Of a stretch of DNA of 64,000 nucleotides, positions 2,444-17,294 are shown piece by piece. The notes under the pieces are model-generated. The model was not told where the DNA came from and did not search any database. It saw nothing but the letters and a program-made list of their open reading frames with translations. Both the position numbers and the translations under genes were made by a program. Numbering within the stretch: position 1 is the stretch's first letter; each line of letters starts with the position of its first letter. The stretch is from assembly GCA_964654145.1 (NCBI GenBank), contig CAZZHI010000001.1:9956-73955 (forward strand). Reading direction: 5' to 3'. This DNA comes from an uncultured Candidatus Saccharibacteria bacterium. Its GTDB lineage: Bacteria; Patescibacteriota; Andersenbacteria; UBA10190.

Positions 2444-2520
2444 TCACACATAAAAAGCGTTCAAGATTTTTTTAAAATACTTCCCATGACACGCTTCATG
2501 AAAATAGGTACAGTTGCTGT

Positions 2521-3345: not shown

Positions 3346-3348
3346 TAC

Positions 3349-4302
3349 ATGTCTCGCCGCGTCGTTATCGGCATCCTTATTCTTCTTATCCTAGGCGTCC
3401 TCGGGGGCGCTGTTGCTCTTATTATTTCACGGTCCAGACAGCAAACCACACCTACCCCAACCCTTACACCAAGCTCCTTCCCGCAAGCATCTTCAACCCC
3501 TCAAGTAGTGCAAGACCCGACAGGGGACCCTGATGCAGACGGACTCTCAAACGCAGATGAAGCACTTTGGGGAACAAACCCATCTAACGCAGACACAGAC
3601 TCTGATGGCTACAAAGATGGAGAAGAAATTGCCGCTTCCCATAACCCAACAATTCCAAGCCCGAACGACAAGCTTCCCGAAGGGTTCCAGCCAGGCCAAA
3701 ACGTAACTCCACTTACAAGTTCAGCGCCCGCAGCTCAAGGATTTGAATCGCTATTCTCAGATTCTGTTGACGTAACAGGCGGAAATAAAAACCTTAGCCA
3801 AGAGTATGCACGATCCGTGCCAGATAATAACAAAACGCCTGTAACCCTCAATCAATTCATTGAAGCTCAAACAATTACAACAGTTCTTCCAAAAGTAAAC
3901 GACTCCGCAATTATCCCAGACCAAGCGACCCCATTAGCTTTAAATTATTATATGGCCGTAGCGGGGAACCTTGATGCAATATCTGATGAAACCCTATTAT
4001 CCCTAGCTTTAACTAATTTCCTAGATAATCAAAACGCATCTGGATTTGAAACAATTGCTATAGGAGTTAAATCTTTCCAAACGAGACTACAAGCATTGCG
4101 AGTCCCGCCACAAGCAACCCAATACCATAAGCTCTTACTTGGATATTGTGAGTTACTTGCTGGCACCCTAAATCAAATAGGAGGATATCCGAACGATCAA
4201 GTTAAAGCCCTTGTAGCATTTAGACAGTTAGACGCAATAGATAGGCAATATTATCCACTAGTAATTCAGGAACGGGCACGACTTCTTGAATTAGCACAAT
4301 AA
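3349..4302 (+). CDS. Membrane-anchored hypothetical protein with a Pro/Thr-rich linker and a paired DxDxDG calcium-binding (EF-hand/dockerin-like) module
   Basis: It has an N-terminal TM helix (IGILILLILGVLGGAVALII), a TPTPTLTP linker, and DPDADGLSNADEALWG followed by NADTDSDGYKDGEEI. It is the first gene of a long co-directional operon. Confidence 0.6.
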   Translation: MSRRVVIGILILLILGVLGGAVALIISRSRQQTTPTPTLTPSSFPQASSTPQVVQDPTGDPDADGLSNADEALWGTNPSNADTDSDGYKDGEEIAASHNPTIPSPNDKLPEGFQPGQNVTPLTSSAPAAQGFESLFSDSVDVTGGNKNLSQEYARSVPDNNKTPVTLNQFIEAQTITTVLPKVNDSAIIPDQATPLALNYYMAVAGNLDAISDETLLSLALTNFLDNQNASGFETIAIGVKSFQTRLQALRVPPQATQYHKLLLGYCELLAGTLNQIGGYPNDQVKALVAFRQLDAIDRQYYPLVIQERARLLELAQ

Positions 4303-4309
4303 CAATTAT

Positions 4310-5080
4310 ATGAATCCTACAAATAAAATTGGAATACGAATTATAGGGATAACACTTATATGCTCCATTCTTCTTATCGGAATATGGAAAGCCGTTGAGT
4401 TTGGAATTTCTGCTTACAAAGCCCCGCAAGCGACTACAACGCCTACCCCTGTTGCATTGCTCCCAGAACCAACCCAAGACCCTACTATCCAACAAGAATT
4501 ATCAACTTTTGTAGATACGGCACAAGAATCACTTACGGGGTACACAAAAAAATATGTCGACTCATTGCCAGCAGATAGCACAAAAGAACAAGTGCTGGAT
4601 CAAAAAGCATTAGAAGCTTTCGTAGATGCAAACCGTGGCCCGCTGTTACCAGAACTTCCAGCTGGCACAATCCAAACTACAAGTGCGTCAGGGAAGAAAG
4701 CAATTCAAACATACCTCGACTCCATATCTCCGGTTCAAAATAAAGAAATTGCAACCGTAACAGGAGACATGATTACCGAGGCTTTAGCAAAACAACAAAG
4801 CAACGAGGAGCTCCAAGCAATTGTTCCTATTCGTGCCTCTATTGAGAAAAATTTAGAAATATTTAAAAGCGTAAAAACACCTAAAGAATCACTCGAACTT
4901 CACACAAAACTTATTCAAGCAACCCAGTCATTACTGAGCAGCATTCAACTACTCCAAGAAATGCGAAATGATCTTGTAGGGGGTCTTATTGGGCAAAAAA
5001 ATCTTGCAGACCTAAACGGAATATTCACAGAAGTATCGAACAATATTCTTGCCCTCGAAAGTAAATACGACATCAAGTAA
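4310..5080 (+). CDS. Membrane-anchored hypothetical protein
   Basis: It has an N-terminal TM helix (IGIRIIGITLICSILLIGIW) and a Thr/Pro linker. It lies 8 bp after the previous gene, and I recognise no family. Confidence 0.55.
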   Translation: MNPTNKIGIRIIGITLICSILLIGIWKAVEFGISAYKAPQATTTPTPVALLPEPTQDPTIQQELSTFVDTAQESLTGYTKKYVDSLPADSTKEQVLDQKALEAFVDANRGPLLPELPAGTIQTTSASGKKAIQTYLDSISPVQNKEIATVTGDMITEALAKQQSNEELQAIVPIRASIEKNLEIFKSVKTPKESLELHTKLIQATQSLLSSIQLLQEMRNDLVGGLIGQKNLADLNGIFTEVSNNILALESKYDIK

Positions 5081-5113
5081 AACGTGGTATAATCCTGTCA
5101 TACTTTAGGTCGT

Positions 5114-6664
5114 ATGCCTGTAACTATCTTTTATTTTTTTCGCCATACTTTTAGAGCAGTAGTTATCGCTCTTATTTTTTTCGGCATCACAGTATTTTCG
5201 CCATCTGCATACGCAGATCCGCATGCAGTATTTTATACTGACCGGGCCCAAGAACAGCTTTTTTACAACACCCTCGCTGCGCTTAATCAGGCAGATTTCG
5301 TAGAGCCAGTCTCAAATAATCAATACAGCCGTGCCGTCCTCCTTGCAAGAAGGTCCTCTACTGTAGCAAGAACAAGTCCGCAACCAGGAGATAGAACTTT
5401 TGTAGCGGAGCAAAATCCGGTTATTAATTCCACGAGAACAGATTTACCCGCAATCTTGAGCAGAGGTATAACCCTCGAAGGAAACGACCTCTGGACTGCA
5501 TACCTTATTAATCAATTCGCCCTTGAAACTACAACAAGACGATCAGAAGATGAACTTGCTCGTACACTCTGCGAACGAGGTTTGGGAAGAGTTCAGTGTA
5601 ATAGAAGACTAGGCCGCAGTCAGCAGCAGAATAAAGCATTTATAACACAACCAGCAACAGAGTCTGGAAAGCTCGATGTCGCCGTAAATTCTGCTCTTTC
5701 ATCTGGACTTGCTAGTGAAACAGCCTTGCGCCAAAAAATTGCGGATCCAAACAACACAACAAGCGACCCTGTATACCGAATACCTCGACCGAATTCTCCG
5801 GCCTTAGCCGGCCTCAATAAAAATATTCAAGGCAACCCCGACGCATTGAATTTTATGAGTATAGTAACGGGCAACGCATTAAACGATATAGAGATAGACC
5901 CTGATACCCTCGAAGAATTAACATTCGATAAAAATGGAATACCTAGCGTTCCGGAAAACACGTCTGCAAGCGAATATGTTCGCAAACTTAATCAAATATC
6001 AAGTTTGCCCTCAAAACTATATTCCGTTGGGCAAAAGGCATATCAACAAGCTGTTGCGTTTCAGCATTACACTCAAAACCCAACAGCAGTTGCAGACTAC
6101 AAGCTGGTTGCCGAATCTCCTAATGGAGATGGAGGGTTAATTGCAAACATCACAACTCCAGTAAGCGCAAAACTTGATACAATTAGCTCTCTTGCAGCCC
6201 TCCAAACAGCGGCAGCAACGAGCCAAAAAAGCGCAAACCCAGCCGCTATCGGAGACCCCGGAGATACGCGAATTATTGAGACTGACAAGGTCGCAATTCC
6301 GCCATCACCCGCACCAACCCCACCGCTCATATTTGTAACAAACCCATCATCAGGAACCCCGCAAGTTGCTGGTATTTCAACAGAGCTCTATAACTTATAT
6401 CGCGATTATTACGACAACCCTCCAGATACTGCCCTTTCGCCCAATGCAAACTTAATTAACCCCAATAGGGAAAGGGGTCTTCATGATGGATTATTAGCCC
6501 TAACGGATAATACATATCGAAAAGGAAATCTAGCAGACTCCTCCGAAATGTCATGTGCATTTTGTATTCAACTTGATCAAGTCTTAGAACGCTTCACAAT
6601 CTCGAACGTACTTTGCTCATTATTCCCTACGCTAAATGTTTGCGTAAATAATAAAACAATATGA
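5114..6664 (+). CDS. Secreted hypothetical protein with a Cys-containing C-terminus
   Basis: The signal-peptide-like N-terminus ends in SAYA|DP. The protein is 516 aa and hydrophilic, and its stop overlaps the next start (ATGA). Confidence 0.55.
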   Translation: MPVTIFYFFRHTFRAVVIALIFFGITVFSPSAYADPHAVFYTDRAQEQLFYNTLAALNQADFVEPVSNNQYSRAVLLARRSSTVARTSPQPGDRTFVAEQNPVINSTRTDLPAILSRGITLEGNDLWTAYLINQFALETTTRRSEDELARTLCERGLGRVQCNRRLGRSQQQNKAFITQPATESGKLDVAVNSALSSGLASETALRQKIADPNNTTSDPVYRIPRPNSPALAGLNKNIQGNPDALNFMSIVTGNALNDIEIDPDTLEELTFDKNGIPSVPENTSASEYVRKLNQISSLPSKLYSVGQKAYQQAVAFQHYTQNPTAVADYKLVAESPNGDGGLIANITTPVSAKLDTISSLAALQTAAATSQKSANPAAIGDPGDTRIIETDKVAIPPSPAPTPPLIFVTNPSSGTPQVAGISTELYNLYRDYYDNPPDTALSPNANLINPNRERGLHDGLLALTDNTYRKGNLADSSEMSCAFCIQLDQVLERFTISNVLCSLFPTLNVCVNNKTI

Positions 6665-8589
6665 AAATCACGCTCCGACATATTTCTGTATTAGGATTAT
6701 TCCTCTTACTATTTGCTGCAAATTCTGCTCATGCTGCGCCAATAACAATGTCTGGCTCCAAGGGACCCAATATTCAAATCACATCTTTTTCTAGTGCGGA
6801 ACTAACTCAAAAAGGATGTCTCCTCGTGACCGCCCAAGTAGGTGATTACAACACGTTAACATGGACATACGAAAGTACTCATGCGGGGCTTACATTTTTC
6901 ATCCCAAAAGACAACCTAGAGAAAGAGGAAATGAAATATACCGATGACGACGGCTTTGAAACGTTCCGAGATTGGTATACAAATACGTTTTCTTGCCCAC
7001 CCGACATATCGAGCAATATCATTGCAGCCGATACCGCGGCAAACAGTTCAAGCTGGTGGAACGACCCATTCGCCGCTGTTATTAATAATCTTTTTGACTT
7101 TGTTGATGCAACAATAAGCTGGCTCATGGAAGGGCTAACAAGCAAGCTATTTTTAACAATTCTTCAGCATGGCGTTTTTATTCAGAGCGATATCGTAAAA
7201 GCTGGCTGGCCTTTTATTCAGGGAATCACCAACCTTGGTTTTATTTTTGTGCTTCTCTATATAGCGCTTGCAACAACACTTCGCTTAGAGTCGGTTTCTA
7301 CTTCTGTCCAACGCTTATTACCCAAGCTTCTCATGGGAGCGCTTCTGGTAAATTTCAGCCTCGTTATTGGAGGACTCATAATCGATGCATCTCGCCTGGT
7401 TATGGCAATAGAGCTACGTTTTGTAGGAGGGGGGGAAGTTAGCGATGGCAAACTCATAAGCGAAATACTAGAACACTCGAAAACGATAGAAACCTCTAGC
7501 GCCACAATCCTAGGACAAACAAGTGAGGCAAAGGGATATGCGGGGATCGTACTTACAAGACTACAGAGCACCATCGTACGCCTTGCCCTTACATTAGGGT
7601 TATTAATTATTGCACTCAATCTCTTTGTCCGATACGTTGCACTCCTTATATTACTTATATTCTCACCCATAGCGTATCTCGCCATGGTCCTCCCGCAAAC
7701 AAAGGATTTTTCCATTAAATGGTGGAGCTATTTCATTAAATGGGTGCTCTATGGTCCGATCGTTTTATTTTTTATGATTATTATCACAAAAATAAGCACC
7801 GTTAACATTCCCGATGATGCCGGGATACTGCCACAAGTTGCTCAATTTTGCGTTGCTATAGCCTTGCTTTATGGGGGACATATCGCTGGCAAAAATGCGG
7901 CAGGGGCGGGCTCTAGTGCCGTAATGGGCTTTGCTGCAAAACATCCTCGCGCCGCCCTTGCTGTGGGAGGAGTACTTACAGGAGGGGTACTACCCGCACT
8001 TGGATTATTGGCGGCCGAGCGAGGGGCTCGTATGGCGGGAACAGGGGTTAAAAATGCTGGACGCGACATCTACAATGCAGCGGGGGCAAACCTGAAAAAT
8101 GCTCCCGTAATTAAACCTATTAGGGACTTCATGGGATATGGCCTACGAGACGACAAAGGTAACATAAAAACAGGCAAGTCTTCATGGGCTTCAGCAGGGG
8201 CAAACGCGCTTACGGAGAAATTTAATAGCTCTTTACAAAAAGATGTTACTAATATTAGAGAGCTAATGGACAATGAAACCGGACAACTTATGACTGCCCC
8301 ATCAGAAGAATTAGCACTTATGCCCTCACAGCTTAAAAAGGGTCATGTTGTAGGGGCCTTAGGTAATAATGAAAAGGAGCGGAATGCGAATATTGAAATT
8401 ATCATGAAAAGTGGATCGCAAGCACAAAGGATGGCGTTAGCACAGAACAAAGACCATATTGCTTCGCTTAGCTCAACGCAAATGGCACAACTACAGCAAA
8501 TTGTTCAAAAATCTGTGCCTGACGGAAAAGACAAGACAGCGGTTCTTGAAAGAATGATTAAAACAGTAGACGAATTAGATAAAAAATAA
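6661..8589 (+). CDS. Polytopic membrane protein, VirB6/TrbL-like candidate of the T4SS-like operon
   Basis: It has a signal peptide (MKITLRHISVLGLFLLLFAANSAHA), a periplasmic domain of about 170 aa, a block of at least 5 predicted TM helices (residues about 180-430), and a hydrophilic tail. This architecture and its position upstream of VirB3/VirB4-like genes resemble VirB6. The assignment is inferred from architecture, not from a motif. Confidence 0.4.
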   Translation: MKITLRHISVLGLFLLLFAANSAHAAPITMSGSKGPNIQITSFSSAELTQKGCLLVTAQVGDYNTLTWTYESTHAGLTFFIPKDNLEKEEMKYTDDDGFETFRDWYTNTFSCPPDISSNIIAADTAANSSSWWNDPFAAVINNLFDFVDATISWLMEGLTSKLFLTILQHGVFIQSDIVKAGWPFIQGITNLGFIFVLLYIALATTLRLESVSTSVQRLLPKLLMGALLVNFSLVIGGLIIDASRLVMAIELRFVGGGEVSDGKLISEILEHSKTIETSSATILGQTSEAKGYAGIVLTRLQSTIVRLALTLGLLIIALNLFVRYVALLILLIFSPIAYLAMVLPQTKDFSIKWWSYFIKWVLYGPIVLFFMIIITKISTVNIPDDAGILPQVAQFCVAIALLYGGHIAGKNAAGAGSSAVMGFAAKHPRAALAVGGVLTGGVLPALGLLAAERGARMAGTGVKNAGRDIYNAAGANLKNAPVIKPIRDFMGYGLRDDKGNIKTGKSSWASAGANALTEKFNSSLQKDVTNIRELMDNETGQLMTAPSEELALMPSQLKKGHVVGALGNNEKERNANIEIIMKSGSQAQRMALAQNKDHIASLSSTQMAQLQQIVQKSVPDGKDKTAVLERMIKTVDELDKK

Positions 8590-8592
8590 ACC

Positions 8593-9165
8593 ATGGATAC
8601 TATCGCACTTAAGACAATCCCTATTAATTCTCTCGTTCTTATCCCAGAACAAGAACGAGGTAGTTACATTCAGAAAATATTTACTCTTCACCAAAAGATG
8701 CAACTTATGTTGTTCTCCGACGACACAGGAGCGTTTATACGGGGAATAGCAAAAACGTACAACGTAAGCCCAGAGACAGCCCCTCATATTGCGTTTGCCA
8801 TCCTGGAAATCGCAATTGGCAAAAAGACCATAGCTCAACTTCCGTCTATTCTGTCTACAGAACTCCAATTACCGATCGATACTGCGCAAAAGATGGCAAC
8901 GGAAATAGAGCATGATGTACTAGCGCCAATTAAAGCAGAGCTCAACGATCAATCCAGTCAGCAAAAGGGGAGTAGCGTGCCATCGCGTACAACTGCACAG
9001 GCAGCATCTTCTGGTATGAAAAATGTTCTTAACCTCAAAGAAATAGCCGCAAAGCCGCCCCAAACACAATTACCCCCGAAGCCCATACAGCCGTCCCTAC
9101 CCCCACGGCGCCCAGTACCTCCCAAAATGCCACCATCCCCGATAGAGCCTATTCGTTTTACATAA
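8593..9165 (+). CDS. Hypothetical protein with a proline-rich C-terminus
   Basis: The ORF has a codon-like composition and a C-terminal PPKPIQPSLPPRRPVPPKMPPSP tract. It lies 4 bp after the upstream gene. Confidence 0.45.
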   Translation: MDTIALKTIPINSLVLIPEQERGSYIQKIFTLHQKMQLMLFSDDTGAFIRGIAKTYNVSPETAPHIAFAILEIAIGKKTIAQLPSILSTELQLPIDTAQKMATEIEHDVLAPIKAELNDQSSQQKGSSVPSRTTAQAASSGMKNVLNLKEIAAKPPQTQLPPKPIQPSLPPRRPVPPKMPPSPIEPIRFT

Positions 9166-9174
9166 TTAGTACCC

Positions 9175-9621
9175 ATGCGCTTTCAAGTACCACAATTTAC
9201 CGACATTGAAGATAAAATAGTTGGTCCATTTACACTAAGACAGTTCTTAACGTACGTAGTAGCAGTTATGCTCTTGGTTCCTGTATATATTTATTCCGAC
9301 TTATCACTCTTTATTACTATCGCAATCCCAGTTCTTGGTGTTGCGGCAGTGTTTGCGCACTTAAAAATATATGGAAAAACATTCACCCAAGTGCTCTTTG
9401 CATCCATCGCATACGCTTCAAAGGGGCAATTGTATATTTGGAGGAGGCAGAAAAACCAGCCCTTTAAAATTGTTGATCCAGAATGGGATATTGCAGCAGG
9501 CAATCGCACAAATTCTGCGCTCACGCGCCCCGCATCTTCTCTTGATGCTATTGCGCAGTCACTGGAAACAACAGGAAATATAAGCAAAGAGGATATTCCA
9601 GACCCTCTCATGGTACAATAG
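9175..9621 (+). CDS. Small 2-TM membrane protein, VirB3/PrgI-like
   Basis: An N-terminal FTDIEDKIVGPFTLRQFL segment is followed by two TM helices. It sits immediately upstream of the VirB4-like ATPase, as virB3/prgI genes do in Gram-positive-type conjugation systems. Confidence 0.5.
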   Translation: MRFQVPQFTDIEDKIVGPFTLRQFLTYVVAVMLLVPVYIYSDLSLFITIAIPVLGVAAVFAHLKIYGKTFTQVLFASIAYASKGQLYIWRRQKNQPFKIVDPEWDIAAGNRTNSALTRPASSLDAIAQSLETTGNISKEDIPDPLMVQ

Positions 9622-9627
9622 CAAGAT

Positions 9628-10329
9628 ATGGCGATGTTCGACATGATGGCACCTCGTTCAAAGGGGAAAGCGAGCCAAACTCTCATCAATATCTCTGAGT
9701 TACGAGATGGGATTGTTATATTAAAAGATAACACCATGCGCGCAGTGCTCATGATTTCTTCTGTAAACTTCGCACTGAAGTCTGAAGATGAGCAAAATGC
9801 TATCGTATATGCATATCAAGACTTTATTAACTCGTTAGATTTTCCAATTCAACTTACAATATCTTCCCGAAAGATGGACATCACGCCCTACCTGGAGGAG
9901 GTTAAGCACCTGCGCGACCTGCAAAAAAATGAGCTCCTTCATCTCCAGATGACGGAATATATTAACTTCGTCTCGGAACTCGTAAAAGGAAGTAATATTA
10001 TGACAAAAACATTTTTTGTAACTATTCCCTTCGCAGTAACACAAGATAAAAAAGAAGGATTCTTCTCCAGAATGACAAAAGGGGCAAAAGGAGCTGCCGG
10101 AAAGGGGAAAATGAACGATATTGAATTTGAACATAACAAAACTCAGCTTATGCATAGGGTAGAGCAGGTTGCAATTGGACTGCGAGGCATCGGGCTGCGA
10201 GTAGTGCCGCTAAAAACCCAGGAATTAATCGAGTTATTCTACAACTACTTCAACCCCTCCACCTCCCGAAACCAAAGATTGCGAAACGTAGACAAGCTCA
10301 CAGTTCAGGAAACAGATACACCCCTATGA
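9628..10329 (+). CDS. VirB4/CagE/TrbE-like N-terminal domain protein (first of two coupled ORFs)
   Basis: The ISELRDGIVILKDNTMRAVLMISSVNFALKSEDEQNAIVYAYQDFINSLDFPIQLTISSRK segment matches the VirB4 N-terminal-domain pattern. Its stop overlaps the next ATG (ATGA at 10326-10329). Confidence 0.55.
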   Translation: MAMFDMMAPRSKGKASQTLINISELRDGIVILKDNTMRAVLMISSVNFALKSEDEQNAIVYAYQDFINSLDFPIQLTISSRKMDITPYLEEVKHLRDLQKNELLHLQMTEYINFVSELVKGSNIMTKTFFVTIPFAVTQDKKEGFFSRMTKGAKGAAGKGKMNDIEFEHNKTQLMHRVEQVAIGLRGIGLRVVPLKTQELIELFYNYFNPSTSRNQRLRNVDKLTVQETDTPL

Positions 10330-12134
10330 AACTGCCATCTTTTTTTCAAAAAACTCCAGCTAAAAAAGAAACAAAAGATCCTGTTATTGAACAGTTCGAT
10401 AAAGGCGTTTCTTCGCTACGAGATATTATTGCCCCTTCTGCATTTAAGGTAAAAACAAAATCACTAGAAATCGATGGGAAATTTGCAACGACTGTTTTTG
10501 TTACCACATACCCTCGATACCTCGACACGAATTGGTTTGCATCGATCGTAAACTTTGACGTGGAGTTTGATGTTGCAATGTTTATTTACCCGCAAGACTC
10601 TGCAACAATTTTGAAAGAATTACGAAAAAGAATAACCCAGGTTTCTACCTCTATTTCTATGCAAGCTGAACAAGGAAAAGTTCGTGACCCTCAACTAGAG
10701 ACTGCATACCAGGATATTGAAGAGCTTCGTGATCGCCTCGTGCAGGGAACTGAACGCTTCTACCAATACGGGCTATACATAACCATGTATGCGAATAACG
10801 AAGAAGAGCTTGATGAAATATTGTCTCAAGTAGAGGTTTTACTAGAAGGAAGGCTCATTTACGCAAAACCAGCCCTATTCCAAATGGAACAAGGATTCAC
10901 CTCTACGCTACCGCTAGGGCACGATGGCCTTGTAGTAAACGTAAACATGAACACCTCGCCGCTTTCAACAAGCTTTCCGTTTGTAAGTTCCGATCTTACG
11001 AGCAACTCTGGTGTTCTATACGGAATCAACCTCCATAACAGCAGCTTGGTTCTATTCGACCGCTTCAGCCTAGAAAATGCCAACATGGTTATCTTTGCAA
11101 AATCCGGTGCCGGAAAAAGTTATACTGTAAAATTAGAAATTCTCAGAAGCCTCATGTTCGGTACAGAAATTATTGTCATCGACCCAGAACAAGAATACCG
11201 ATACTTGGCGGAAGCAGTCGGTGGAGCGTACCTCCAAATCGCCATCTCTTCTGACCATCGTATCAATCCATTCGACTTACCAGAACTAGGGGAGGATGAA
11301 AATCCCGAAGCCGTACTCCGAGAAAATATCACGAGGCTTATTGGGCTTATATCACTGATGGTTGAGGGGCTTTCCGCAGAAGAGCAATCAATCGTAGACG
11401 GAGCGCTTTGGGAAACCTACGCATTAAAAGATATTACGCGCGGTGCAAGGTGGACAAAACCAGAAGTTCCAACGCTTCAAGATTTCTACAACATTACAAA
11501 AGACATGGAAGGTGGGAAGAATGTAGCAACAAGATTGCAGCGATTCGTAGAGGGTACCTTTGCCGGAGTATTTAATAGGGCTACAAACATCGACCTCGAT
11601 CAACAGCTCATTGTATTTAATATTCGAGACATGGAAGAAGAGCTTCGCCCAATTGCCATGTACGTAGTTCTTGGCTTTATATGGAACAGAATTAGAAGCC
11701 AGCTCAAGCGAAGAATTCTCGTGGTAGACGAAGCCTGGATCATGATGCGAAACGAAGAGTCTGCGAAATTCTTGTTCTCCATGGCAAAACGAGCTCGAAA
11801 ATACTACCTGGGCGTAACTACGATCACACAAGATATTTCCGACTTTTTGGGCTCAAAATATGGCAAACCAATTGTTACAAACTCCTCAATCCAACTTCTC
11901 CTGCGCCAGTCTCCTGCGGCAATCGATGCTCTATCTGAATTGTTTTATCTCACAGACCACGAAAAGTTTCGCTTACTTGAGAGCGATGTGGGCGAGGGAA
12001 TATTTTTCGCAGGCCTTAAGCATGTTGCCATTAAGGTTGTCGCCAGCTATGCGGAAGACCAGGTAATTACATCCGACCCTCAGCAAATCCTTGCAATCGA
12101 AGCGGCCAAGAAAGAGCTTGGCGGCCAAGCGTAA
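10326..12134 (+). CDS. VirB4-family type IV secretion/conjugation ATPase (ATPase part)
   Basis: It has a Walker A (FAKSGAGKSYTV), a Walker B (RRILVVDEAWIMM) and TcpF/PrgJ-like N-terminal segments (IIAPSAFKV...TTYPRYLDTNWFASIV). Walker A lies at residue 257, which is too N-terminal for a complete VirB4 unless ORF 9628-10329 is part of the same protein. Confidence 0.75.
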   Translation: MKLPSFFQKTPAKKETKDPVIEQFDKGVSSLRDIIAPSAFKVKTKSLEIDGKFATTVFVTTYPRYLDTNWFASIVNFDVEFDVAMFIYPQDSATILKELRKRITQVSTSISMQAEQGKVRDPQLETAYQDIEELRDRLVQGTERFYQYGLYITMYANNEEELDEILSQVEVLLEGRLIYAKPALFQMEQGFTSTLPLGHDGLVVNVNMNTSPLSTSFPFVSSDLTSNSGVLYGINLHNSSLVLFDRFSLENANMVIFAKSGAGKSYTVKLEILRSLMFGTEIIVIDPEQEYRYLAEAVGGAYLQIAISSDHRINPFDLPELGEDENPEAVLRENITRLIGLISLMVEGLSAEEQSIVDGALWETYALKDITRGARWTKPEVPTLQDFYNITKDMEGGKNVATRLQRFVEGTFAGVFNRATNIDLDQQLIVFNIRDMEEELRPIAMYVVLGFIWNRIRSQLKRRILVVDEAWIMMRNEESAKFLFSMAKRARKYYLGVTTITQDISDFLGSKYGKPIVTNSSIQLLLRQSPAAIDALSELFYLTDHEKFRLLESDVGEGIFFAGLKHVAIKVVASYAEDQVITSDPQQILAIEAAKKELGGQA

Positions 12135-12143
12135 CCAATCTAT

Positions 12144-12623
12144 ATGGCAGCTTCTATTTCACAAACCGAGCAAATGCGATCAACCGCACTAAATACAGCA
12201 CGATATAGAAAACAGAATATTCAACAAGAAGTTCGAAAAGGCTTATTTCAATCAACCGCACCACAAGAAGAGCCCGAGACTGTCCCGGAACAATCTCAAT
12301 ATAAACAACGACTTGCGATGCTAAAAGCCGGATCAATAAAGCGCGCAAATACTGAGCTTGGAAGTAAGGCTGGAGCAACTGCTGGGAGCGCTATTGGATC
12401 AATCATACCCGTATTAGGTACAGGTATTGGATTTTTTCTAGGCCGATTTATAGGAAGAAAATTAGGAATCACTGGAATCATAATTATTTCTCTCATACTA
12501 TTAGCATTCTGTATGACGATATTTTTTATAATTTTCATAGGAGCACTTAAGGGGTATTGCGATACGTATGTCGGTACTGCTGTAGACTATATAACAATGC
12601 AAATATGTCCAAGCTTTCAATAA
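12144..12623 (+). CDS. Small membrane protein (hypothetical)
   Basis: It has a hydrophilic N-terminal half and a Gly-rich double TM segment (AGATAGSAIGSIIPVLGTGIGFFLG...ITGIIIISLILLAFCMTIFFIIFIG). Confidence 0.4.
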   Translation: MAASISQTEQMRSTALNTARYRKQNIQQEVRKGLFQSTAPQEEPETVPEQSQYKQRLAMLKAGSIKRANTELGSKAGATAGSAIGSIIPVLGTGIGFFLGRFIGRKLGITGIIIISLILLAFCMTIFFIIFIGALKGYCDTYVGTAVDYITMQICPSFQ

Positions 12624-13207
12624 TTTTTACATTTATACTTCTAATATTTTTCTGCGCTACCAGCCCCCTTGCTTTAAGGGCCCAAGAATCTGGCAGCACA
12701 GCCCAAACGAGCGGGTTTGGAAAATTTGAAGTAGGCCTGCCAGGGATTCCCAGCGACACAACAATCGATAGCTTTGCCAGCGATCCTGAACCCATCCTTA
12801 AATTTATTAACCTAGCCACAAATGCCGTAATTGCAATTTTAGTTATTATTGGCCTTATTAGTATCACTGTTGGCGGATACTTATATATGACAGCAGCTGG
12901 AAATGGGAAGCAAATTGAAACCGCAAAAGAAATAATAATTGCAGCATTGGCTGGAATATTTCTAGCCCTTATATCAGTTGTCATACTTAATACAATCAAC
13001 AACTACTTAGGGAAAGACGCGAAAGAACCTACGCTCGGGCCTGTGGAGGGCTCAGCGCTTGATAGCCCTTCGGGAGCAATGCAGAATTTTAATAGTGACG
13101 GTAATTCCTTCGAAAACTTTGAAGACTTCGATAGTTCTGGTGGATCTTTTGAAGACCTAGATAATCCCGACTCATTCGGAAGCCCAGATAACCTTCCTAC
13201 GCTCTAG
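12605..13207 (+). CDS. Secreted 2-TM hairpin protein with an acidic tail, VirB2/TrbC-like pilin candidate
   Basis: The track ORF starts at 12557, but the internal Met at 12605 gives a typical signal peptide (MSKLSIIFTFILLIFFCATSPLALRA|QE). This is followed by two hydrophobic helices separated by AAGNGKQIETAKE and a D/E/F-rich tail. Confidence 0.4.
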   Translation: MSKLSIIFTFILLIFFCATSPLALRAQESGSTAQTSGFGKFEVGLPGIPSDTTIDSFASDPEPILKFINLATNAVIAILVIIGLISITVGGYLYMTAAGNGKQIETAKEIIIAALAGIFLALISVVILNTINNYLGKDAKEPTLGPVEGSALDSPSGAMQNFNSDGNSFENFEDFDSSGGSFEDLDNPDSFGSPDNLPTL

Positions 13208-14420
13208 GAATACGATGAAGGGTGGGAAGTAAGCTGAGTGTAAAGAATGCCCACCATAGGGCAGAGAGATCATTTTTCCAGTAGATTGTATCAACAAGTC
13301 CAAATAACAGCATACACACCACGGCTAGAATGCTTGCTTGCTGATATATGTCTGCGTGTTTTATTGCCTGGCTCCACGCCCCTATAACAAAAGAATTTAA
13401 TGCAACAAAACTTACAAGCCCCAAAAGCCCCATATTAAGGTAAAAGGAAAGTATCCAGTTGTGCGGATCTCGAAATACGAATTCGTGTTGCAATACATAT
13501 AATCCGTTCCATAGACCAGCCCGCTGCTTACTAAAAAGCCCATGAAGCTCTGCTTGATACGCCTGTTCAAATTGCCCCAAGCCAACCCCTAGAAGAGGGT
13601 TTTTTTGGATAAGCCGTATTCCAATGTCCCATAACTGCAATCGAACCGTTACAGAATTTCCAAAAGATCTATCCGATAAAGGAAGAAGAATATAGTGCAA
13701 ACGCCCTGAAGCAAAAAACACTGCGCCTGCACACAAAACCGTAAGAAGTAGCCCCAATATCAATTTTTTTGCACTCACGGAGGGTACTGTGCGCCAAGAA
13801 AAGATGAGGCCACCTATAAGGCATCCAATTATTGCGGCCATAGCACCGAAAGACTGGGTTGCAATAATAGCAGTTAAAAGAAAAATTGCGCCTATTCCAT
13901 AAAAACGATCCCGCCCGCGTATCCAAAGCCATATAGATAAAACCGCTATTGGAGCAAGAAACAGCGCAAGAGAATTCGGAACATCGTACAACGCGGCAAT
14001 GCGTTCAAAGTTACGGATCTGAGATAGTCCGATCAGTGCAACAACCAAACCAGAACATACAAAAGAATAGAGTATTTCTTTACGCCCACGTTTAATCCCC
14101 ACAAGATACAGTAAAAAACTAAACATAATAGGAGTCACAATCCAACTTTTCAAAATACCCAAACTAGAGCGTAAAACAGGAGAATAAAAAGTTGCCAAAA
14201 GCGCAGCGACAACAAATAAAATGACCCACACTCTATACACAAAGGAAATGCCAAGCATGGCGCCCAAGAGATATTTTCGAAACCTTGGATTGCTAAGAGC
14301 AATAAGCAGAACGCTCCAAACCATAACCTCAAAAAGATTTGTAGGAATTCCAGCGATTGAAAACCTTACGACGTATAAAGGAAGCAGCCCCGCCAGAATT
14401 GTAATAAGCGTATATATCAT
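13197..14420 (-). CDS. Polytopic membrane protein, O-antigen ligase/polymerase (Wzy/WaaL-like) family candidate
   Basis: The protein is 407 aa with at least 10 TM helices and a large loop. It is the first minus-strand gene of a glycosyltransferase/flippase cluster. Confidence 0.4.
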   Translation of the reverse strand: MIYTLITILAGLLPLYVVRFSIAGIPTNLFEVMVWSVLLIALSNPRFRKYLLGAMLGISFVYRVWVILFVVAALLATFYSPVLRSSLGILKSWIVTPIMFSFLLYLVGIKRGRKEILYSFVCSGLVVALIGLSQIRNFERIAALYDVPNSLALFLAPIAVLSIWLWIRGRDRFYGIGAIFLLTAIIATQSFGAMAAIIGCLIGGLIFSWRTVPSVSAKKLILGLLLTVLCAGAVFFASGRLHYILLPLSDRSFGNSVTVRLQLWDIGIRLIQKNPLLGVGLGQFEQAYQAELHGLFSKQRAGLWNGLYVLQHEFVFRDPHNWILSFYLNMGLLGLVSFVALNSFVIGAWSQAIKHADIYQQASILAVVCMLLFGLVDTIYWKNDLSALWWAFFTLSLLPTLHRIPRA

Positions 14421-15724
14421 AGAGTAAGCGCTGCGAAGATAATGTACGGAATAAGGACGTGAGGATATAAGATGCTATTTACGAATTGAGCATGCACAAG
14501 CAGGGCAATAGTTGCCCAAACAAAGAAGAGAGAGTTGTAACTCCGCATAAAAAGCCAGCGCCGTATATGGAATACCACCCCCAAGAGCATGGGGGTAAAA
14601 AATAGAAGAGCTCCAACCATCCCGGTAGTCACCAGAATAGTAAAAATACTGTTGTCAGACCCTGCGCGCGAGTGTACAGAGAAACTAGATACGAGATTTT
14701 CATTTGCTGCAGCAAATTGATACGCATTATACCCGACACCGAACAACATATTTGGACTAACCAAAAATCTCCAGACAGATCGGTAAGACTCCGCCCTGAG
14801 TGCTATTGTTGGGTCATGAAAAAAAACTTGATATGCCCGTTCTCGAAGGAGGGTAATACTTCCGGAAAAAATAATAACTAACAACACACCTCCGGGCACA
14901 ATTGCTTTCTTCCAGTTTCCAGAAATCTTAGATGAAAATACCCAAATAATTCCGCAACATAAACCCGCAACCAAAAGAGCAAGATAAGAACTTCTAGACT
15001 CCGTTAAACCGATGGCTACAACCGCAAAAAACAACCAAAAAATTCGAGTGATTGCAGAAACTTTATGCGGCATCCAATACAAAAATATAGGGAGAAATAC
15101 TACAAAGAATATCCCCAAAAAATTAGGGTCGAGCCACGTTGAAACCATCCTATCAATATGCGGATCCCAACCGTTGTCCACAAATCCAGCAAGGCTGGGG
15201 AGAAAGAATAGCTGCACAAATCCAGCAACGAGCAATGCTCCATAGAGATACACGAACCCCTTTTTCATGCTAGAAAAAATACTGGGCAGAGAGGTTGCAA
15301 TAAGGGCTGCCGGGAGCAATGAAAGCACCACGGCAAGCCTGATCCAATACAGAAAAGAAATACGAATATCTACCATCTGGTATACCCCCACGTGAGCCAC
15401 AAGTACTGCTAACCCCCAAAGCAAAAACGGAGAGATAGCAATAGACGCTAAAAAAATCTTCTTAGTATAGAAAGGCAATTCTCCCCTTAATAGAGATACG
15501 AATAAGGATAATAAAAAGACAAGAACCGCAATATCACTCACCAAAAGACCACCCCCTTGCCCCTGCAGCGGGATGCGGATAAGTTGTCCTAAAAATAACG
15601 ATAGATAAACTCCGGTGATCGAAGCTTTCAGGGAAAATATCATCCCAAAGACACATGCCGCAACTAAGAGACCCGTGGTCGTAGCAATCGGTAAATACTC
15701 CGCAAGAATCTCTGAAGCTTCCAT
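14417..15724 (-). CDS. Polytopic membrane protein, O-antigen ligase/polymerase-like (paralog of the previous gene)
   Basis: The protein is 435 aa with multiple TM helices. The track start at 15724 overlaps the upstream GT2 gene by 61 nt. An internal Met (MIFSLKAS, about 15643) is an alternative start. Confidence 0.4.
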   Translation of the reverse strand: MEASEILAEYLPIATTTGLLVAACVFGMIFSLKASITGVYLSLFLGQLIRIPLQGQGGGLLVSDIAVLVFLLSLFVSLLRGELPFYTKKIFLASIAISPFLLWGLAVLVAHVGVYQMVDIRISFLYWIRLAVVLSLLPAALIATSLPSIFSSMKKGFVYLYGALLVAGFVQLFFLPSLAGFVDNGWDPHIDRMVSTWLDPNFLGIFFVVFLPIFLYWMPHKVSAITRIFWLFFAVVAIGLTESRSSYLALLVAGLCCGIIWVFSSKISGNWKKAIVPGGVLLVIIFSGSITLLRERAYQVFFHDPTIALRAESYRSVWRFLVSPNMLFGVGYNAYQFAAANENLVSSFSVHSRAGSDNSIFTILVTTGMVGALLFFTPMLLGVVFHIRRWLFMRSYNSLFFVWATIALLVHAQFVNSILYPHVLIPYIIFAALTL

Positions 15725-16434
15725 ATATAAATAGGGTAGTGCTTTTTATAGTACCTGTCAGCCGAGTCGTCGTATATCAGAGTCTTTTTCTTTTTATTTA
15801 ATTTACTACCCCCTCGCCGGTGGACTACTAATGCCCGAGGATCAAGCATAACAACACGTCCTTCTGCGCGAGCCCGATGACACAAATCGATGTCCTCCCA
15901 ATACAAGAAAAAGCCTTCATCAAACCCTCCCAATTTTTCAAAAAATTCCCTTGATATAAGAAGTGCTCCGCCAGAGACCCAACCAACAGAGACGGGCATA
16001 CGTGGCATTACGTTTCGATATGCATGCCTTGTTAGTAGATTGAATATTCCAGGCTCTTCGCCATAGGAATTTTTTTCAGGAACCATATAAGAATCGGAGA
16101 GCAACATTCCCACAATACCAACACGGGGAATAGCTTGCATCGTATGTGCAGCATACTCTATTGCACCACCAATAAGCTTTGCGTCTGGGTTCAAGAAAAG
16201 AACATATTCCGTGTTCAATAATCGCGCTGCCTTATTTGCAGCGTATCCGAACCCCAGATTCTCCCGCAGATCTTCGCAGGCACGCCCCAAGCGAGTAATC
16301 TCCGCAACCGTTCCGTCATTAGATGCACTATCCACAATCGCGATATCGGAAATACCCGCAGATAGAACACTCTCAATACAGGCGGCTATATCTTGCTCGT
16401 TATTATGCGTAACAATAGCAACTCCTATATTCAT
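15664..16434 (-). CDS. Family 2 glycosyltransferase (GT-A fold)
   Basis: It has VAIVTHNNEQDIAACIESV, DSASNDGT and DAK (DxD-like) motifs. The track ORF extends to 16563, but Met MNIGVAIV at 16434 avoids a 133-nt overlap with the upstream gene. Confidence 0.7.
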   Translation of the reverse strand: MNIGVAIVTHNNEQDIAACIESVLSAGISDIAIVDSASNDGTVAEITRLGRACEDLRENLGFGYAANKAARLLNTEYVLFLNPDAKLIGGAIEYAAHTMQAIPRVGIVGMLLSDSYMVPEKNSYGEEPGIFNLLTRHAYRNVMPRMPVSVGWVSGGALLISREFFEKLGGFDEGFFLYWEDIDLCHRARAEGRVVMLDPRALVVHRRGGSKLNKKKKTLIYDDSADRYYKKHYPIYIWKLQRFLRSIYRLLRPRVS

Positions 16435-17294
16435 AGAGCCATTTGTCCTAATTTTTTCATGCGAGCATCGCGCAAGGCCTGCACAATACCAGAGTGCCCA
16501 TTCCCCATAATTATATGATAGAAAATCCGTAGAGTGTTTTTCGCATACCAAAACATCCTCCAAGTAAACGGTGTTAGCCTTTCTAGCACATAGGCCCCGT
16601 TTCGTACCAAGTAATACAGCTTATCGGGCAAAAGCACCCCGATTGAATCATTATGAAGTACGGAGATATTAGGAATAATAGCGAGCACCCCTCCTATTGC
16701 TCGAACCCGCATACTTATAGCAACATCCTCCCAATACATGAAAAAATCTTCATAGAAGGGGATCTGCTGAGCGAATCCATACTCCAAAACCATACAACAA
16801 CCGTGAATATAAGGAATTACAAAGGGACTTCTTTCTTCTAAGCGCCCTACAACATCCGCCCTCCCAGAAAGAAGCGAAACGGCACCCCAAGAAGCTCCCG
16901 CCAGTACGGCATGCCCCCCTGACTCATCCCACCAAATCGCAATATCCCTTAAGGCGCTAGGGGACAGGATAAGGTCATTATTGAGAAGAACGCAGACATC
17001 AGCATCTTTTGCGCCTATAACCCCGGCATACTGTATTCCGGCCCGCAATCCCGACGCGTACCCGTTATTTCTAAAAGGGCGAACAACCTCAACTGGCACA
17101 AGGGGAGTGAAGGAGGCTGAAGAATGATCAACCACAATAATTTTTTCCGGATCACATCCAGCCGTAAGGGCCGCCTCTATTGCCACATCAGTCTTTTCCC
17201 TTGATCCAAAATGGACAAAAATAACGAATATATCCCTTTTCTGTGGAGAGCTTGTGGATAAATCTGTGGATAATGTCGTATTTTTTGTGAACAT
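16431..17294 (-). CDS. Family 2 glycosyltransferase
   Basis: It has IFVIFVHFGS, NNGYASG and NND motifs. Codons 7-17 coincide with a cluster of DnaA-box motifs (see findings). Confidence 0.65.
   Translation of the reverse strand: MFTKNTTLSTDLSTSSPQKRDIFVIFVHFGSREKTDVAIEAALTAGCDPEKIIVVDHSSASFTPLVPVEVVRPFRNNGYASGLRAGIQYAGVIGAKDADVCVLLNNDLILSPSALRDIAIWWDESGGHAVLAGASWGAVSLLSGRADVVGRLEERSPFVIPYIHGCCMVLEYGFAQQIPFYEDFFMYWEDVAISMRVRAIGGVLAIIPNISVLHNDSIGVLLPDKLYYLVRNGAYVLERLTPFTWRMFWYAKNTLRIFYHIIMGNGHSGIVQALRDARMKKLGQMAL

What the first reader, a model, noticed from the sequence alone, without database searches (positions are those of the whole stretch)
9628..12134. VirB4-like ATPase encoded as two translationally coupled ORFs (ATGA overlap at 10326-10329)
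ORF 9628-10329 (233 aa) has the VirB4/CagE/TrbE N-terminal-domain pattern. ORF 10326-12134 (602 aa) has the remainder plus Walker A at residue 257, which is too N-terminal for a full VirB4. Together they total 835 aa, a canonical VirB4 length. The junction is a stop/start overlap (cccctATGAaactg) with a -1 frame relationship. It is therefore either a genuinely split VirB4, which would be an unusual architecture, a programmed frameshift, or a sequencing frameshift or pseudogene.
Basis: partly seen in the sequence, partly recalled or inferred. Interest (0 to 1): 0.5.

Follow-up and report, generated by a model that had tools for sequence, protein, structure and literature searches.

The report
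Two-gene VirB4 ATPase (TrsD-like plus core)
The secretion-system motor protein VirB4 really is encoded here as two adjacent overlapping genes, but this is the normal arrangement in this group of ultra-small bacteria, was already described as "TrsD + VirB4", and is neither a sequencing error nor a frameshift.

Summary
ORF1 (9628-10329, 233 aa) and ORF2 (10326-12134, 602 aa) overlap by ATGA, with ORF2 in the -1 frame.

Together they make one VirB4. ORF1 covers positions 3-137 and ORF2 positions 179-733 of a 752-position VirB4 profile. The pair aligns end to end with fused 775-807 aa relatives. A model of the pair matches full-length R388 TrwK/VirB4 (TM 0.65-0.70).

The split is genuine:
- All 120 closest ORF1 homologues are 192-248 aa, and all 120 closest ORF2 homologues are 550-657 aa.
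- All 80 related genomes keep two ORFs, with three different junction types: ATGA overlap, a 20-nt overlap in the +1 frame, and a 518-nt spacer holding an inserted gene.
- Both ORFs are under strong purifying selection (dN/dS about 0.01-0.04).
- There is no slippery site.

The arrangement is not new. Staphylococcal pSK41/pGO1 has the same pair (trsD + traE/trsE), broken at the same profile position. A 2025 survey reports TrsD homologues next to virB4 at 1,664 Patescibacteria loci.

The organism is an Andersenbacteria-type CPR bacterium. The genes lie in its chromosomal T4SS-like cluster, downstream of a PrgI/VirB3-like gene and upstream of a weak pilin-like ORF.

Interest is low. The small addition is that TrsD is shown to be the detached, complementary N-terminal module of VirB4, fused in one CPR clade and split in others.

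The parts
9175..9621 (+). PrgI/VirB3-like small membrane protein (148 aa). It sits immediately upstream of ORF1 with a 6-nt gap and is the presumed membrane anchor partner of the VirB4 N-terminal module.
   Evidence: Pfam PF12666 PrgI, E 5e-9, 37 bits against a cut-off of 27. It is conserved upstream in 14/14 Andersenbacteria-type loci (median 77% identity) and detectable in 31 Saccharibacteria loci. A 135-aa ORF occupies the same position upstream of trsD in pSK41 but had no family match.
9628..10329 (+). ORF1, 233 aa: a TrsD-like protein that is the detached N-terminal module of VirB4 (first half of the VirB4 N-terminal domain).
   Evidence: NCBIfam CD1110 VirB4 positions 3-137, E 2.5e-8; TrsD/TraD NF041427, E 3.8e-5. 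Pfam TraC_F_IV positions 16-183. The 120 closest homologues are 192-248 aa. AF2 model pLDDT 85.9. The top 14 PDB fold matches are all TrwK/VirB4 chains (probability 0.99-1.00; five have E<=0.001). dN/dS is 0.013 against L001.
10326..10329 (+). ATGA stop/start overlap: the ORF2 start ATG (10326-10328) overlaps the ORF1 stop TGA (10327-10329). Likely a termination-reinitiation coupling point.
   Evidence: Sequence. The motif cTATGA is identical in 13 of 14 Andersenbacteria-type genomes even though synonymous sites are saturated and the flanking bases vary. Nine such overlaps occur in the window.
10326..12134 (+). ORF2, 602 aa: the VirB4 core, comprising the second half of the N-terminal domain (CagE_TrbE_VirB) and the C-terminal RecA-like ATPase domain.
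   Evidence: NCBIfam CD1110 positions 179-733 of 752, E 8e-114, above cut-off. Pfam P-loop_TraG E 1.5e-25 and CagE_TrbE_VirB positions 61-196. PDB 4AG5 VirB4 C-terminal domain, E 5.6e-45; TrwK residues 306-736. The 120 closest homologues are 550-657 aa.
11097..11120 (+). Walker A motif, AKSGAGKS (ORF2 residues 258-265).
   Evidence: Motif search. G494, G496, K497 and S498 are invariant in alignment A2.
11715..11732 (+). Walker B-like motif, ILVVDE (ORF2 residues 464-469).
   Evidence: Motif search. D701 and E702 are invariant in alignment A2.
12557..13207 (+). Candidate VirB2-like T4SS pilin (weak match; the true start is probably downstream of the TTG).
   Evidence: Pfam T4SS_pilin, E 8e-4, 19.8 bits, below the cut-off of 26.6. 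NCBIfam Mbov_0395 pilin-like, E 1.2e-5, below cut-off. Syntenic in 10/14 Andersenbacteria-type loci.
3349..9165 (+). Five upstream co-oriented genes that are conserved in synteny with the VirB4 pair (317, 256, 516, 642 and 190 aa). Function unknown. The 642-aa protein (6661-8589) is proposed here, untested, as a candidate VirB6 analogue.
   Evidence: Found in the same order in 6-11 of the 14 Andersenbacteria-type loci. No significant Pfam family apart from one TSP3 repeat. The VirB6 assignment was not tested.

Best explanation
This is a genuine two-subunit VirB4-type secretion ATPase in a chromosomal, monoderm-type (MPF-FATA-like) type IV secretion cluster of an Andersenbacteria-like CPR/Patescibacteria bacterium.

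ORF1 is a TrsD-like protein and supplies the first ~200 residues of the VirB4 N-terminal domain. ORF2 supplies the rest of that domain plus the Walker A/B ATPase domain. The gene is broken in a poorly conserved, predicted-disordered linker.

Inferred mechanism: the two chains are made from one mRNA. Ribosomes terminating ORF1 at TGA reinitiate at the overlapping ATG, which keeps the two products near 1:1. The chains then associate non-covalently to rebuild a complete VirB4 protomer. That protomer oligomerises and docks on the membrane through the upstream PrgI/VirB3-like protein, as covalent VirB4 does in R388.

Shown here: the complementarity and colinearity of the two ORFs, the conservation of the split, purifying selection on both ORFs, and the fold. 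Inferred only: translational coupling, physical association, stoichiometry and ATPase function.
For: Complementary profile coverage:
- CD1110 VirB4: ORF1 matches 3-137, ORF2 matches 179-733.
- TraC_F_IV: ORF1 matches 16-183, ORF2 matches 275-373.

Colinearity with fused relatives:
- ORF1+ORF2 aligns end to end with 53 fused VirB4 proteins of 775-807 aa at 45-50% identity.
- About 33 extra residues lie exactly at the junction.

Structure:
- The ORF1 model has pLDDT 85.9, and its top 14 PDB fold matches are all TrwK/VirB4 chains.
- The model of the joined pair matches full-length TrwK/VirB4 at E 2.9e-31, with TM 0.65-0.70 over about 870-900 columns.
- Residues 220-247, which span the junction, have pLDDT below 50.

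The split is conserved:
- ORF1 homologues down to 66% identity are 192-248 aa.
- ORF2 homologues are 550-657 aa.
- Of the 150 best 50%-identity cluster representatives, only one is fused.
- 80/80 genome loci are split. Thirteen have the ATGA overlap, 66 oral Saccharibacteria loci have a 20-nt overlap in the +1 frame, and one has a 518-nt spacer with an inserted gene.

Selection: dN/dS is 0.012-0.042 for both ORFs wherever dS could be estimated. Elsewhere dS is saturated while dN stays at or below 0.21.

Same pair on a characterised plasmid:
- pSK41 trsD (227 aa) lies directly upstream of traE (672 aa).
- TraE starts at CD1110 position 183, against 179 for ORF2.
- ORF1 against pSK41 TrsD gives BLASTP E 4e-5.
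- The N-terminus of the fused protein P0256 hits the TrsD model at E 8.5e-8.

Literature: TrsD homologues lie next to virB4 at 1,664 Patescibacteria loci, and the TrsD homologue is listed as essential in Ca. Southlakia epibionticum (PMC12102498).
Against: - No direct evidence exists for physical association of the two products, for translational coupling, or for ATPase activity.
- The joined-pair model was computed as a covalent fusion, using an alignment of naturally fused homologues. Its domain packing is therefore homology-driven and is not an independent docking result.
- ORF1 scores far below NCBIfam's curated cut-off for the staphylococcal TrsD subfamily (23.6 against 200 bits), so the link to TrsD is remote homology plus synteny.
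- One relative (L014) keeps both genes 518 nt apart, so tight coupling is not obligatory.
- A possible Shine-Dalgarno-like GGAA lies about 15 nt upstream of the ORF2 ATG, so independent initiation cannot be excluded.
Confidence: 0.9

Rival explanations
1. Sequencing or assembly frameshift: the real gene is a single ~835-aa VirB4, and an indel near 10326 split it artificially.
For: - The ORF2 frame is open for 56 codons upstream of its ATG in the window, so a single indel could in principle fuse the frames.
- Fused 775-807 aa VirB4 proteins exist in another CPR clade.
Against: - The same two-ORF structure, with an identical cTATGA junction, occurs in 13 independent assemblies that differ at saturated synonymous sites.
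- In several of these, the ORF2 frame has a stop only 2-3 codons upstream of the ATG.
- All 120+120 closest homologues have split-type lengths.
- Relative to fused forms, the pair carries about 33 extra residues at the junction, made up of a real C-terminal tail and a real N-terminal tail. One indel would not produce that.
- True artefactual splits look different: P0409 and P0505 are interrupted by 100-N scaffold gaps.
Confidence: 0.01
2. A programmed -1 ribosomal frameshift produces a full-length fused VirB4 from the two frames.
For: - ORF2 is in the -1 frame.
- The two frames overlap for 168 nt in the window.
Against: - No X XXY YYZ slippery heptamer lies in the ORF1 frame within the overlap zone.
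- The overlap zone shrinks to 2-3 codons in close relatives.
- Saccharibacteria homologues have a +1 frame relation with a stop 4 codons upstream of the ORF2 ATG.
- L014 has an entire inserted gene between the two ORFs.
- pSK41 has a 14-nt intergenic gap.
Confidence: 0.01
3. A decaying pseudogene: a VirB4 gene inactivated by a frameshift in a reduced genome.
For: CPR genomes are reduced, and T4SS clusters without a relaxase could be remnants.
Against: - dN/dS is 0.012-0.042 in both ORFs.
- Walker A and B motifs are intact, and many columns are invariant across 54 sequences.
- The whole cluster is syntenic across the lineage.
- T4SS genes, including the TrsD homologue, are reported essential in a cultivated Saccharibacterium (PMC12102498).
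Confidence: 0.01
4. ORF1 is an accessory T4SS protein in its own right. It would be a paralogue of the VirB4 N-terminus that works independently, for example as a regulator or adaptor, rather than as a structural piece of one VirB4 protomer.
For: - The literature treats TrsD as a separate component with no assigned function.
- Many TrsD-like proteins carry long disordered N- or C-terminal tails that fused forms lack.
- TrsD homologues in Gracilibacteria are mostly not adjacent to virB4.
Against: - ORF2 lacks the region that ORF1 provides, so the two are complementary rather than duplicated.
- Fused homologues contain each module exactly once and in the same order.
- The joined-pair model superposes on full-length TrwK.
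Confidence: 0.07

Closest known systems
TrsD/TraD + TrsE/TraE of staphylococcal conjugative plasmids pGO1/pSK41 (MPF-FATA class, pGO1 subclass)
   Same: - Same gene order: a small upstream ORF (PrgI-like in the window; no family match for the pSK41 ORF), then a ~230-aa TrsD, then a ~600-670-aa VirB4 core.
- Same breakpoint in VirB4 profiles: TraE starts at CD1110 position 183 and ORF2 at 179.
- ORF2 and TraE are 26% identical over 590 aa, E 7e-44.
- ORF1 and TrsD are detectably homologous.
   Different: - The window's cluster is chromosomal, in a CPR bacterium. No relaxase domain turned up in the 15 neighbouring ORFs scanned (341-16563); the rest of the window was not scanned. pSK41 is a conjugative plasmid.
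- The junction is a 4-nt overlap here and a 14-nt gap in pSK41.
- ORF1 is far below the NCBIfam TrsD cut-off (23.6 against 200 bits).
Patescibacteria T4SS clusters with TrsD next to virB4 (Quinonero-Coronel et al. 2025, Microb Genom, PMC12102498)
   Same: This locus is an instance of what that survey describes: VirB4 of the Patescibacteria clade with TrsD, PrgI/VirB3 and a VirB2-like pilin nearby, located on the chromosome.
   Different: The paper lists TrsD as a separate component of unknown function with remote homology to the VirB4 N-terminus. In the passages searched it does not use the words 'split' or 'truncated' or describe a complementary split. Not checked in its supplements: whether it says the partner VirB4 lacks that region, that one CPR clade has the two fused, or that the breakpoint equals that of pSK41.
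Single-chain VirB4 (R388 TrwK; Colwellbacteria-type CPR VirB4; CD1110, PrgJ and TcpF of Firmicutes)
   Same: Same domains in the same order, and the same fold over the whole length (TM 0.65-0.70 to TrwK). Identity to fused CPR VirB4 is 45-50%.
   Different: One polypeptide rather than two. The fused CPR forms lack the ~33 junction residues.
VirB3-VirB4 fusions (e.g. Campylobacter and some other conjugative systems)
   Same: Another example of fission/fusion plasticity at the N-terminal end of the VirB4 module.
   Different: The event runs in the opposite direction and at a different boundary. Here PrgI/VirB3-like is a separate gene, and the break lies inside the VirB4 N-terminal domain.

Membership tests
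VirB4/TraC/CagE-family T4SS ATPase | C-terminal RecA-like P-loop ATPase domain with Walker A and Walker B motifs | tested here: met
   ORF2 has AKSGAGKS at residues 258-265 and ILVVDE at 464-469. Pfam P-loop_TraG E 1.5e-25. PDB 4AG5 VirB4 C-terminal domain E 5.6e-45.
VirB4/TraC/CagE-family T4SS ATPase | Score above a curated family cut-off | tested here: met
   ORF2 scores 381.5 bits against NF045971 (VirB4-like, CD1110 family), cut-off 325. It is below the cut-offs of the diderm VirB4, TraC and TrbE equivalogs.
VirB4/TraC/CagE-family T4SS ATPase | Complete N-terminal domain on the same polypeptide as the ATPase domain | tested here: not met
   ORF2 begins at about position 180 of 752 (CD1110) and 238 of 792 (TIGR00929). 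The missing part is on ORF1. The two chains together meet the feature.
VirB4/TraC/CagE-family T4SS ATPase | Full-length fold equivalent to a solved VirB4 | tested here: met
   The joined-pair model against TrwK (8RTD, 7O41) gives E 2.9e-31 and TM 0.65-0.70. Caveat: the pair was modelled as a fusion.
VirB4/TraC/CagE-family T4SS ATPase | ATP hydrolysis, hexamer formation and a role in secretion | not testable with these tools
   Needs biochemistry or genetics.
TrsD/TraD family (NCBIfam NF041427; CONJscan MPF-FATA TrsD) | Score above the NCBIfam curated cut-off | tested here: not met
   ORF1 scores 23.6 bits (E 3.8e-5) against a cut-off of 200. pSK41 TrsD scores 227.6. ORF1 is TrsD-like but is not a member of the staphylococcal subfamily.
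TrsD/TraD family (NCBIfam NF041427; CONJscan MPF-FATA TrsD) | A ~200-230-aa protein encoded immediately upstream of an N-terminally short VirB4-type ATPase, downstream of a small ORF in the VirB3/TrsC position | tested here: met
   The window's gene order matches the pSK41 order, although the 135-aa pSK41 ORF had no family match. The breakpoint is the same.
TrsD/TraD family (NCBIfam NF041427; CONJscan MPF-FATA TrsD) | Hit to the CONJscan TrsD profile used in the Patescibacteria survey, or to Pfam PF26593 | not tested
   The CONJscan profile is not available here. PF26593 is precomputed on all 120 listed ORF1 homologues, but the local Pfam scan of ORF1 did not return it, so ORF1 itself has no PF26593 result.
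Programmed -1 ribosomal frameshift site | Slippery heptamer X XXY YYZ in the 0 frame within the overlap | tested here: not met
   None found between 10158 and 10326.
Programmed -1 ribosomal frameshift site | Conserved frame relation and overlap among homologues | tested here: not met
   Homologues show a -1 frame with 4-nt overlap, a +1 frame with 20-nt overlap, a 518-nt spacer and a 14-nt gap.
Patescibacteria MPF-FATA-like T4SS cluster | VirB4 together with PrgI/VirB3, TrsD, a VirB2-like pilin and VirB6 nearby, with no relaxase | tested here: inconclusive
   VirB4, the TrsD-like protein and PrgI are met. The pilin matches are below cut-off. No VirB6 family hit was found; the 642-aa ORF at 6661-8589 is only a candidate. 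No relaxase domain was found in the 15 neighbouring ORFs scanned (341-16563).

The most novel reading that the evidence does not exclude
The most novel reading not excluded is that the split is functional rather than neutral. Under this reading the TrsD-like chain is a dissociable adaptor, and its regulated binding to PrgI/VirB3 on one side and to the VirB4 core on the other controls assembly or disassembly of the secretion motor in epibiotic CPR cells. The fission and fusion states (split in Andersenbacteria, Saccharibacteria and pSK41; fused in Colwellbacteria) would then mark different modes of T4SS regulation. The frequent disordered tails on TrsD-like proteins would be the regulatory handles.
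Probability: 0.12. Interest if true: 0.4.

Novelty: already known. Interest (0 to 1): 0.15.

Why it matters
It matters mainly for annotation. The 233-aa ORF, labelled 'hypothetical protein' in most public records, is the N-terminal module of VirB4. Pipelines should not flag the pair as a frameshifted pseudogene or merge the two genes.

It also gives the function-less 'TrsD' component of monoderm and CPR type IV secretion systems a concrete structural role as the missing first part of the VirB4 N-terminal domain. That role could be tested directly in the genetically tractable Saccharibacterium, where the TrsD homologue is listed as essential.

It does not reveal a new kind of system.

Tried and rejected
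- A sequence search of ORF1 against PDB chains found nothing at E<=1. The link to solved VirB4 came only from fold comparison.
- Foldseek output gives no residue ranges. I therefore could not read off which TrwK residues ORF1 covers, and relied on profile coordinates instead.
- Model coordinates are not exposed to scripts, so inter-chain contacts in the joined model could not be measured.
- I looked for recent independent fissions inside the fused Colwellbacteria clade. The only two short proteins there (P0409, P0505) are cut by 100-N scaffold gaps and are not real splits.
- I first suspected that the N-terminally extended TrsD-like representatives (P0225, P0231) were PrgI-TrsD fusions. Their extensions are low-complexity Q/P/T-rich tails.
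- The apparent >=1069-aa ORF2 homologue in L004 is not a fusion. It contains an intein-like insertion in the Walker A motif.
- dS is saturated for most pairwise comparisons, so dN/dS could be computed for only a few pairs.
- No phylogeny was built to decide whether the split or the fused state is ancestral.
Full report
**1. Observation**

The window holds ORF1 at 9628-10329 (233 aa) and ORF2 at 10326-12134 (602 aa) on the + strand. The junction reads cccctATGAaactg. The ORF2 ATG (10326-10328) overlaps the ORF1 TGA (10327-10329), so ORF2 is in the -1 frame. Walker A (AKSGAGKS) is at ORF2 residues 258-265 and Walker B-like ILVVDE at 464-469. The description is accurate. The overlap itself is unremarkable here, because nine same-strand gene pairs in the window share a 4-nt ATGA overlap.

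**2. The two ORFs are complementary parts of one VirB4**

| Profile | ORF1 matches | ORF2 matches |
|---|---|---|
| NCBIfam NF045971 (VirB4-like, CD1110 family, 752 positions) | 3-137 (E 2.5e-8) | 179-733 (E 8e-114; 381.5 bits, cut-off 325) |
| NF045975 (894 positions) | 100-222 | 276-893 |
| Pfam TraC_F_IV (375 positions) | 16-183 | 275-373 |

- ORF2 also carries CagE_TrbE_VirB (positions 61-196 of 204) and the P-loop_TraG/AAA_10 ATPase domain.
- ORF2 matches the solved VirB4 C-terminal domain 4AG5 (E 5.6e-45) and TrwK residues 306-736.
- The break therefore lies inside the VirB4 N-terminal domain, not between the N- and C-terminal domains.
- A CPR clade with covalently fused VirB4 exists. 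P0256 and 117 of its 119 listed relatives are 775-807 aa, mostly labelled Colwellbacteria.
- The concatenated ORF1+ORF2 aligns with 53 of these end to end at 45-50% identity.
- The only large indel is about 33 extra residues exactly at the junction: the last ~13 residues of ORF1 and the first ~20 of ORF2. It falls between the conserved YNxYNP and IAP motifs.

**3. Structure**

- An AlphaFold2 model of ORF1 built from 94 sequences has mean pLDDT 85.9.
- Its top 14 PDB fold matches are all TrwK/VirB4 chains of the R388 T4SS (probability 0.99-1.00, best E 5.7e-4). Nothing else is credible.
- A model of the joined pair has pLDDT 78.2 and pTM 0.71. Residues 220-247, which span the junction, are below pLDDT 50.
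- That model superposes on full-length TrwK/VirB4 at E 2.9e-31, with TM 0.65 (query) and 0.68-0.70 (target) over about 870-900 columns.
- Caveat: it was modelled as a fusion with an alignment of fused homologues, so the packing is homology-based.

**4. The split is real and conserved**

- The 120 closest ORF1 homologues (66-88% identity; those named are mostly Candidatus Andersenbacteria) are 192-248 aa.
- The 120 closest ORF2 homologues (76-99% identity) are 550-657 aa.
- An exhaustive search of 1.84 billion cluster representatives found 2,223 ORF1 relatives. Among the best 150 (35-60% identity), only one is fused.
- In 80 related genome loci, every one has two ORFs in different frames.

Junction types:

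| Group | Loci | Junction |
|---|---|---|
| Andersenbacteria-type | 13 | Identical cTATGA overlap with variable flanks; in several, an ORF2-frame stop lies only 2-3 codons upstream of the ATG |
| Oral Saccharibacteria (Nanoperiomorbus group; 42% and 46% identity for ORF1 and ORF2) | 66 | 20-nt overlap, +1 frame |
| L014 | 1 | 518-nt spacer |

- The L014 spacer holds an inserted ~120-aa ORF flanked by inverted repeats. From its sequence and my own knowledge it looks like a four-helix-bundle, 23S-rRNA-IVS-type protein; no family scan was run on it. Both VirB4 parts remain intact around it.
- Selection: dN/dS against L001 is 0.013 for ORF1 and 0.012 for ORF2. Where dS was estimable for other pairs, the ratio is 0.014-0.042. 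Elsewhere dS is saturated while dN stays at or below 0.21.
- No X XXY YYZ heptamer lies in the zone where both frames are open.
- As a control for what artefacts look like, the only two 'short' VirB4 proteins inside the fused clade are interrupted by 100-N scaffold gaps.
- Sequencing error, programmed frameshift and pseudogene are therefore all rejected.

**5. What it is called**

- ORF1 also hits NCBIfam NF041427, 'TrsD/TraD family conjugative transfer protein' (E 3.8e-5, far below the cut-off).
- In Staphylococcus aureus pSK41 the order is: a CagC-like pilin gene, a 135-aa ORF, trsD (227 aa), then a 672-aa DUF87 protein (TraE/TrsE), followed by a membrane protein and a CHAP hydrolase.
- TraE starts at CD1110 position 183, against 179 for ORF2. 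It aligns with ORF2 from residue 36 to ORF2 residue 33 (26% identity, E 7e-44).
- ORF1 against pSK41 TrsD gives E 4e-5. The N-terminus of the fused P0256 hits the TrsD model at E 8.5e-8.
- The window's pair is thus the CPR counterpart of TrsD+TrsE, broken at the same place.
- The literature already records this pairing. Quinonero-Coronel et al. [quoted passage not shown] They counted 2,272 homologues, 1,664 of them associated with virB4. They note that no function is assigned and that the homologue in Ca. Southlakia epibionticum ML1 is listed as essential.

**6. Context**

- A PrgI/VirB3-like gene lies directly upstream (9175-9621; PF12666, above cut-off).
- A weak VirB2-like pilin candidate lies downstream (12557-13207).
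- The block 3349-13207 is syntenic in Andersenbacteria-type genomes.
- Flanking genes are housekeeping or envelope genes: UvrD, an rRNA adenine dimethylase, O-antigen-ligase-like proteins and a glycosyltransferase.
- No relaxase domain was found in the 15 neighbouring ORFs scanned (341-16563). The rest of the window was not scanned.
- This fits the chromosomal, relaxase-less CPR T4SS described in the 2025 paper.

**7. Mechanism**

Shown here:
- Two complementary, conserved, selected cistrons.
- A break in a variable, predicted-disordered linker.
- A stop/start overlap kept across saturated synonymous divergence.

Inferred:
- Translation of ORF2 by termination-reinitiation at ATGA, giving roughly equimolar products.
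- Non-covalent reassembly into a VirB4 protomer.
- Docking to the membrane through the PrgI/VirB3-like protein. This follows from established knowledge of R388, where the VirB4 N-terminal domain binds VirB3 (entries 7O41 and 8RTB, the top fold hits).
- L014 and pSK41 show that tight overlap is not obligatory.

**8. Verdict**

The 'genuinely split' reading is correct, and the frameshift, error and pseudogene readings are refuted. The architecture is the norm for this lineage and is already catalogued as TrsD + VirB4. It is not unusual.

The increments here are modest:
- TrsD and the short VirB4 are shown to be strictly complementary.
- The breakpoint is shared with pSK41.
- At least one CPR clade carries the fused form.

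Interest is low.

Noticed in passing
L004 4065-7271 (CAZSWB010000035.1, Andersenbacteria-type MAG): The ORF2/VirB4 homologue carries a ~650-aa insertion exactly inside the Walker A motif: ...SGAGK|SIKGSEP...GGMFVHN|SYTVKLEIL. It contains LAGLIDADG-like motifs, and its flanks rejoin to the window's GAGKSYTVK. This looks like an intein with a homing endonuclease in the P-loop. It is absent from the window.
   Followed up: partly
L014 2559-3077 (CAZUSC010000029.1): A ~120-aa ORF flanked by inverted repeats (cgagtaactagtaacgagtaacc... / ...ggttactagttactc) is inserted between the TrsD-like and VirB4 genes. From its sequence and my own knowledge it looks like a four-helix-bundle, 23S-rRNA-IVS-type protein; no family scan was run. 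It behaves like a small mobile cassette and serves as a natural uncoupling of the two cistrons.
   Followed up: partly
representatives (e.g. P0225, P0231, P0152, P0137): Many TrsD-like proteins of other CPR lineages are 300-480 aa because of long low-complexity (Q/P/T/A-rich) N- or C-terminal tails that fused VirB4 forms lack. Their function is unknown.
   Followed up: no
L082 3886-6470 (CAYJCP010000001.1, fused-VirB4 clade): In this Colwellbacteria-type contig the PrgI-VirB4 cluster lies within about 2 kb of rnpA-yidC-dnaA. This agrees with the published remark that CPR T4SS clusters often sit near the replication origin. It was not checked for the window.
   Followed up: no
L082 ~1545-1647 and L083 ~1802-2008: 100-N scaffold gaps inside the VirB4 N-terminal region make gene callers report a 600-aa 'short' VirB4 in an otherwise fused clade. 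This is an annotation artefact that mimics the genuine split.
   Followed up: yes
window 12144-12623 and 12557-13207: The 159-aa glycine-zipper-like membrane ORF and the pilin-like ORF overlap by 67 nt if the TTG start at 12557 is used. The pilin-like gene more likely starts at the ATG near 12605 (MSKLSIIFTF...).
   Followed up: no
window 13197-15724 (- strand): Two tandem O-antigen-ligase-like (Wzy_C) membrane proteins joined by an ATGA overlap, followed by a family-2 glycosyltransferase. This is an envelope glycan locus directly abutting the T4SS cluster.
   Followed up: no
window 3349-4302: A 317-aa protein with a bacterial TSP3 (thrombospondin type 3-like, calcium-binding) repeat is the first gene of the syntenic block upstream of the T4SS genes. 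It may be a surface or adhesion component of the system.
   Followed up: no
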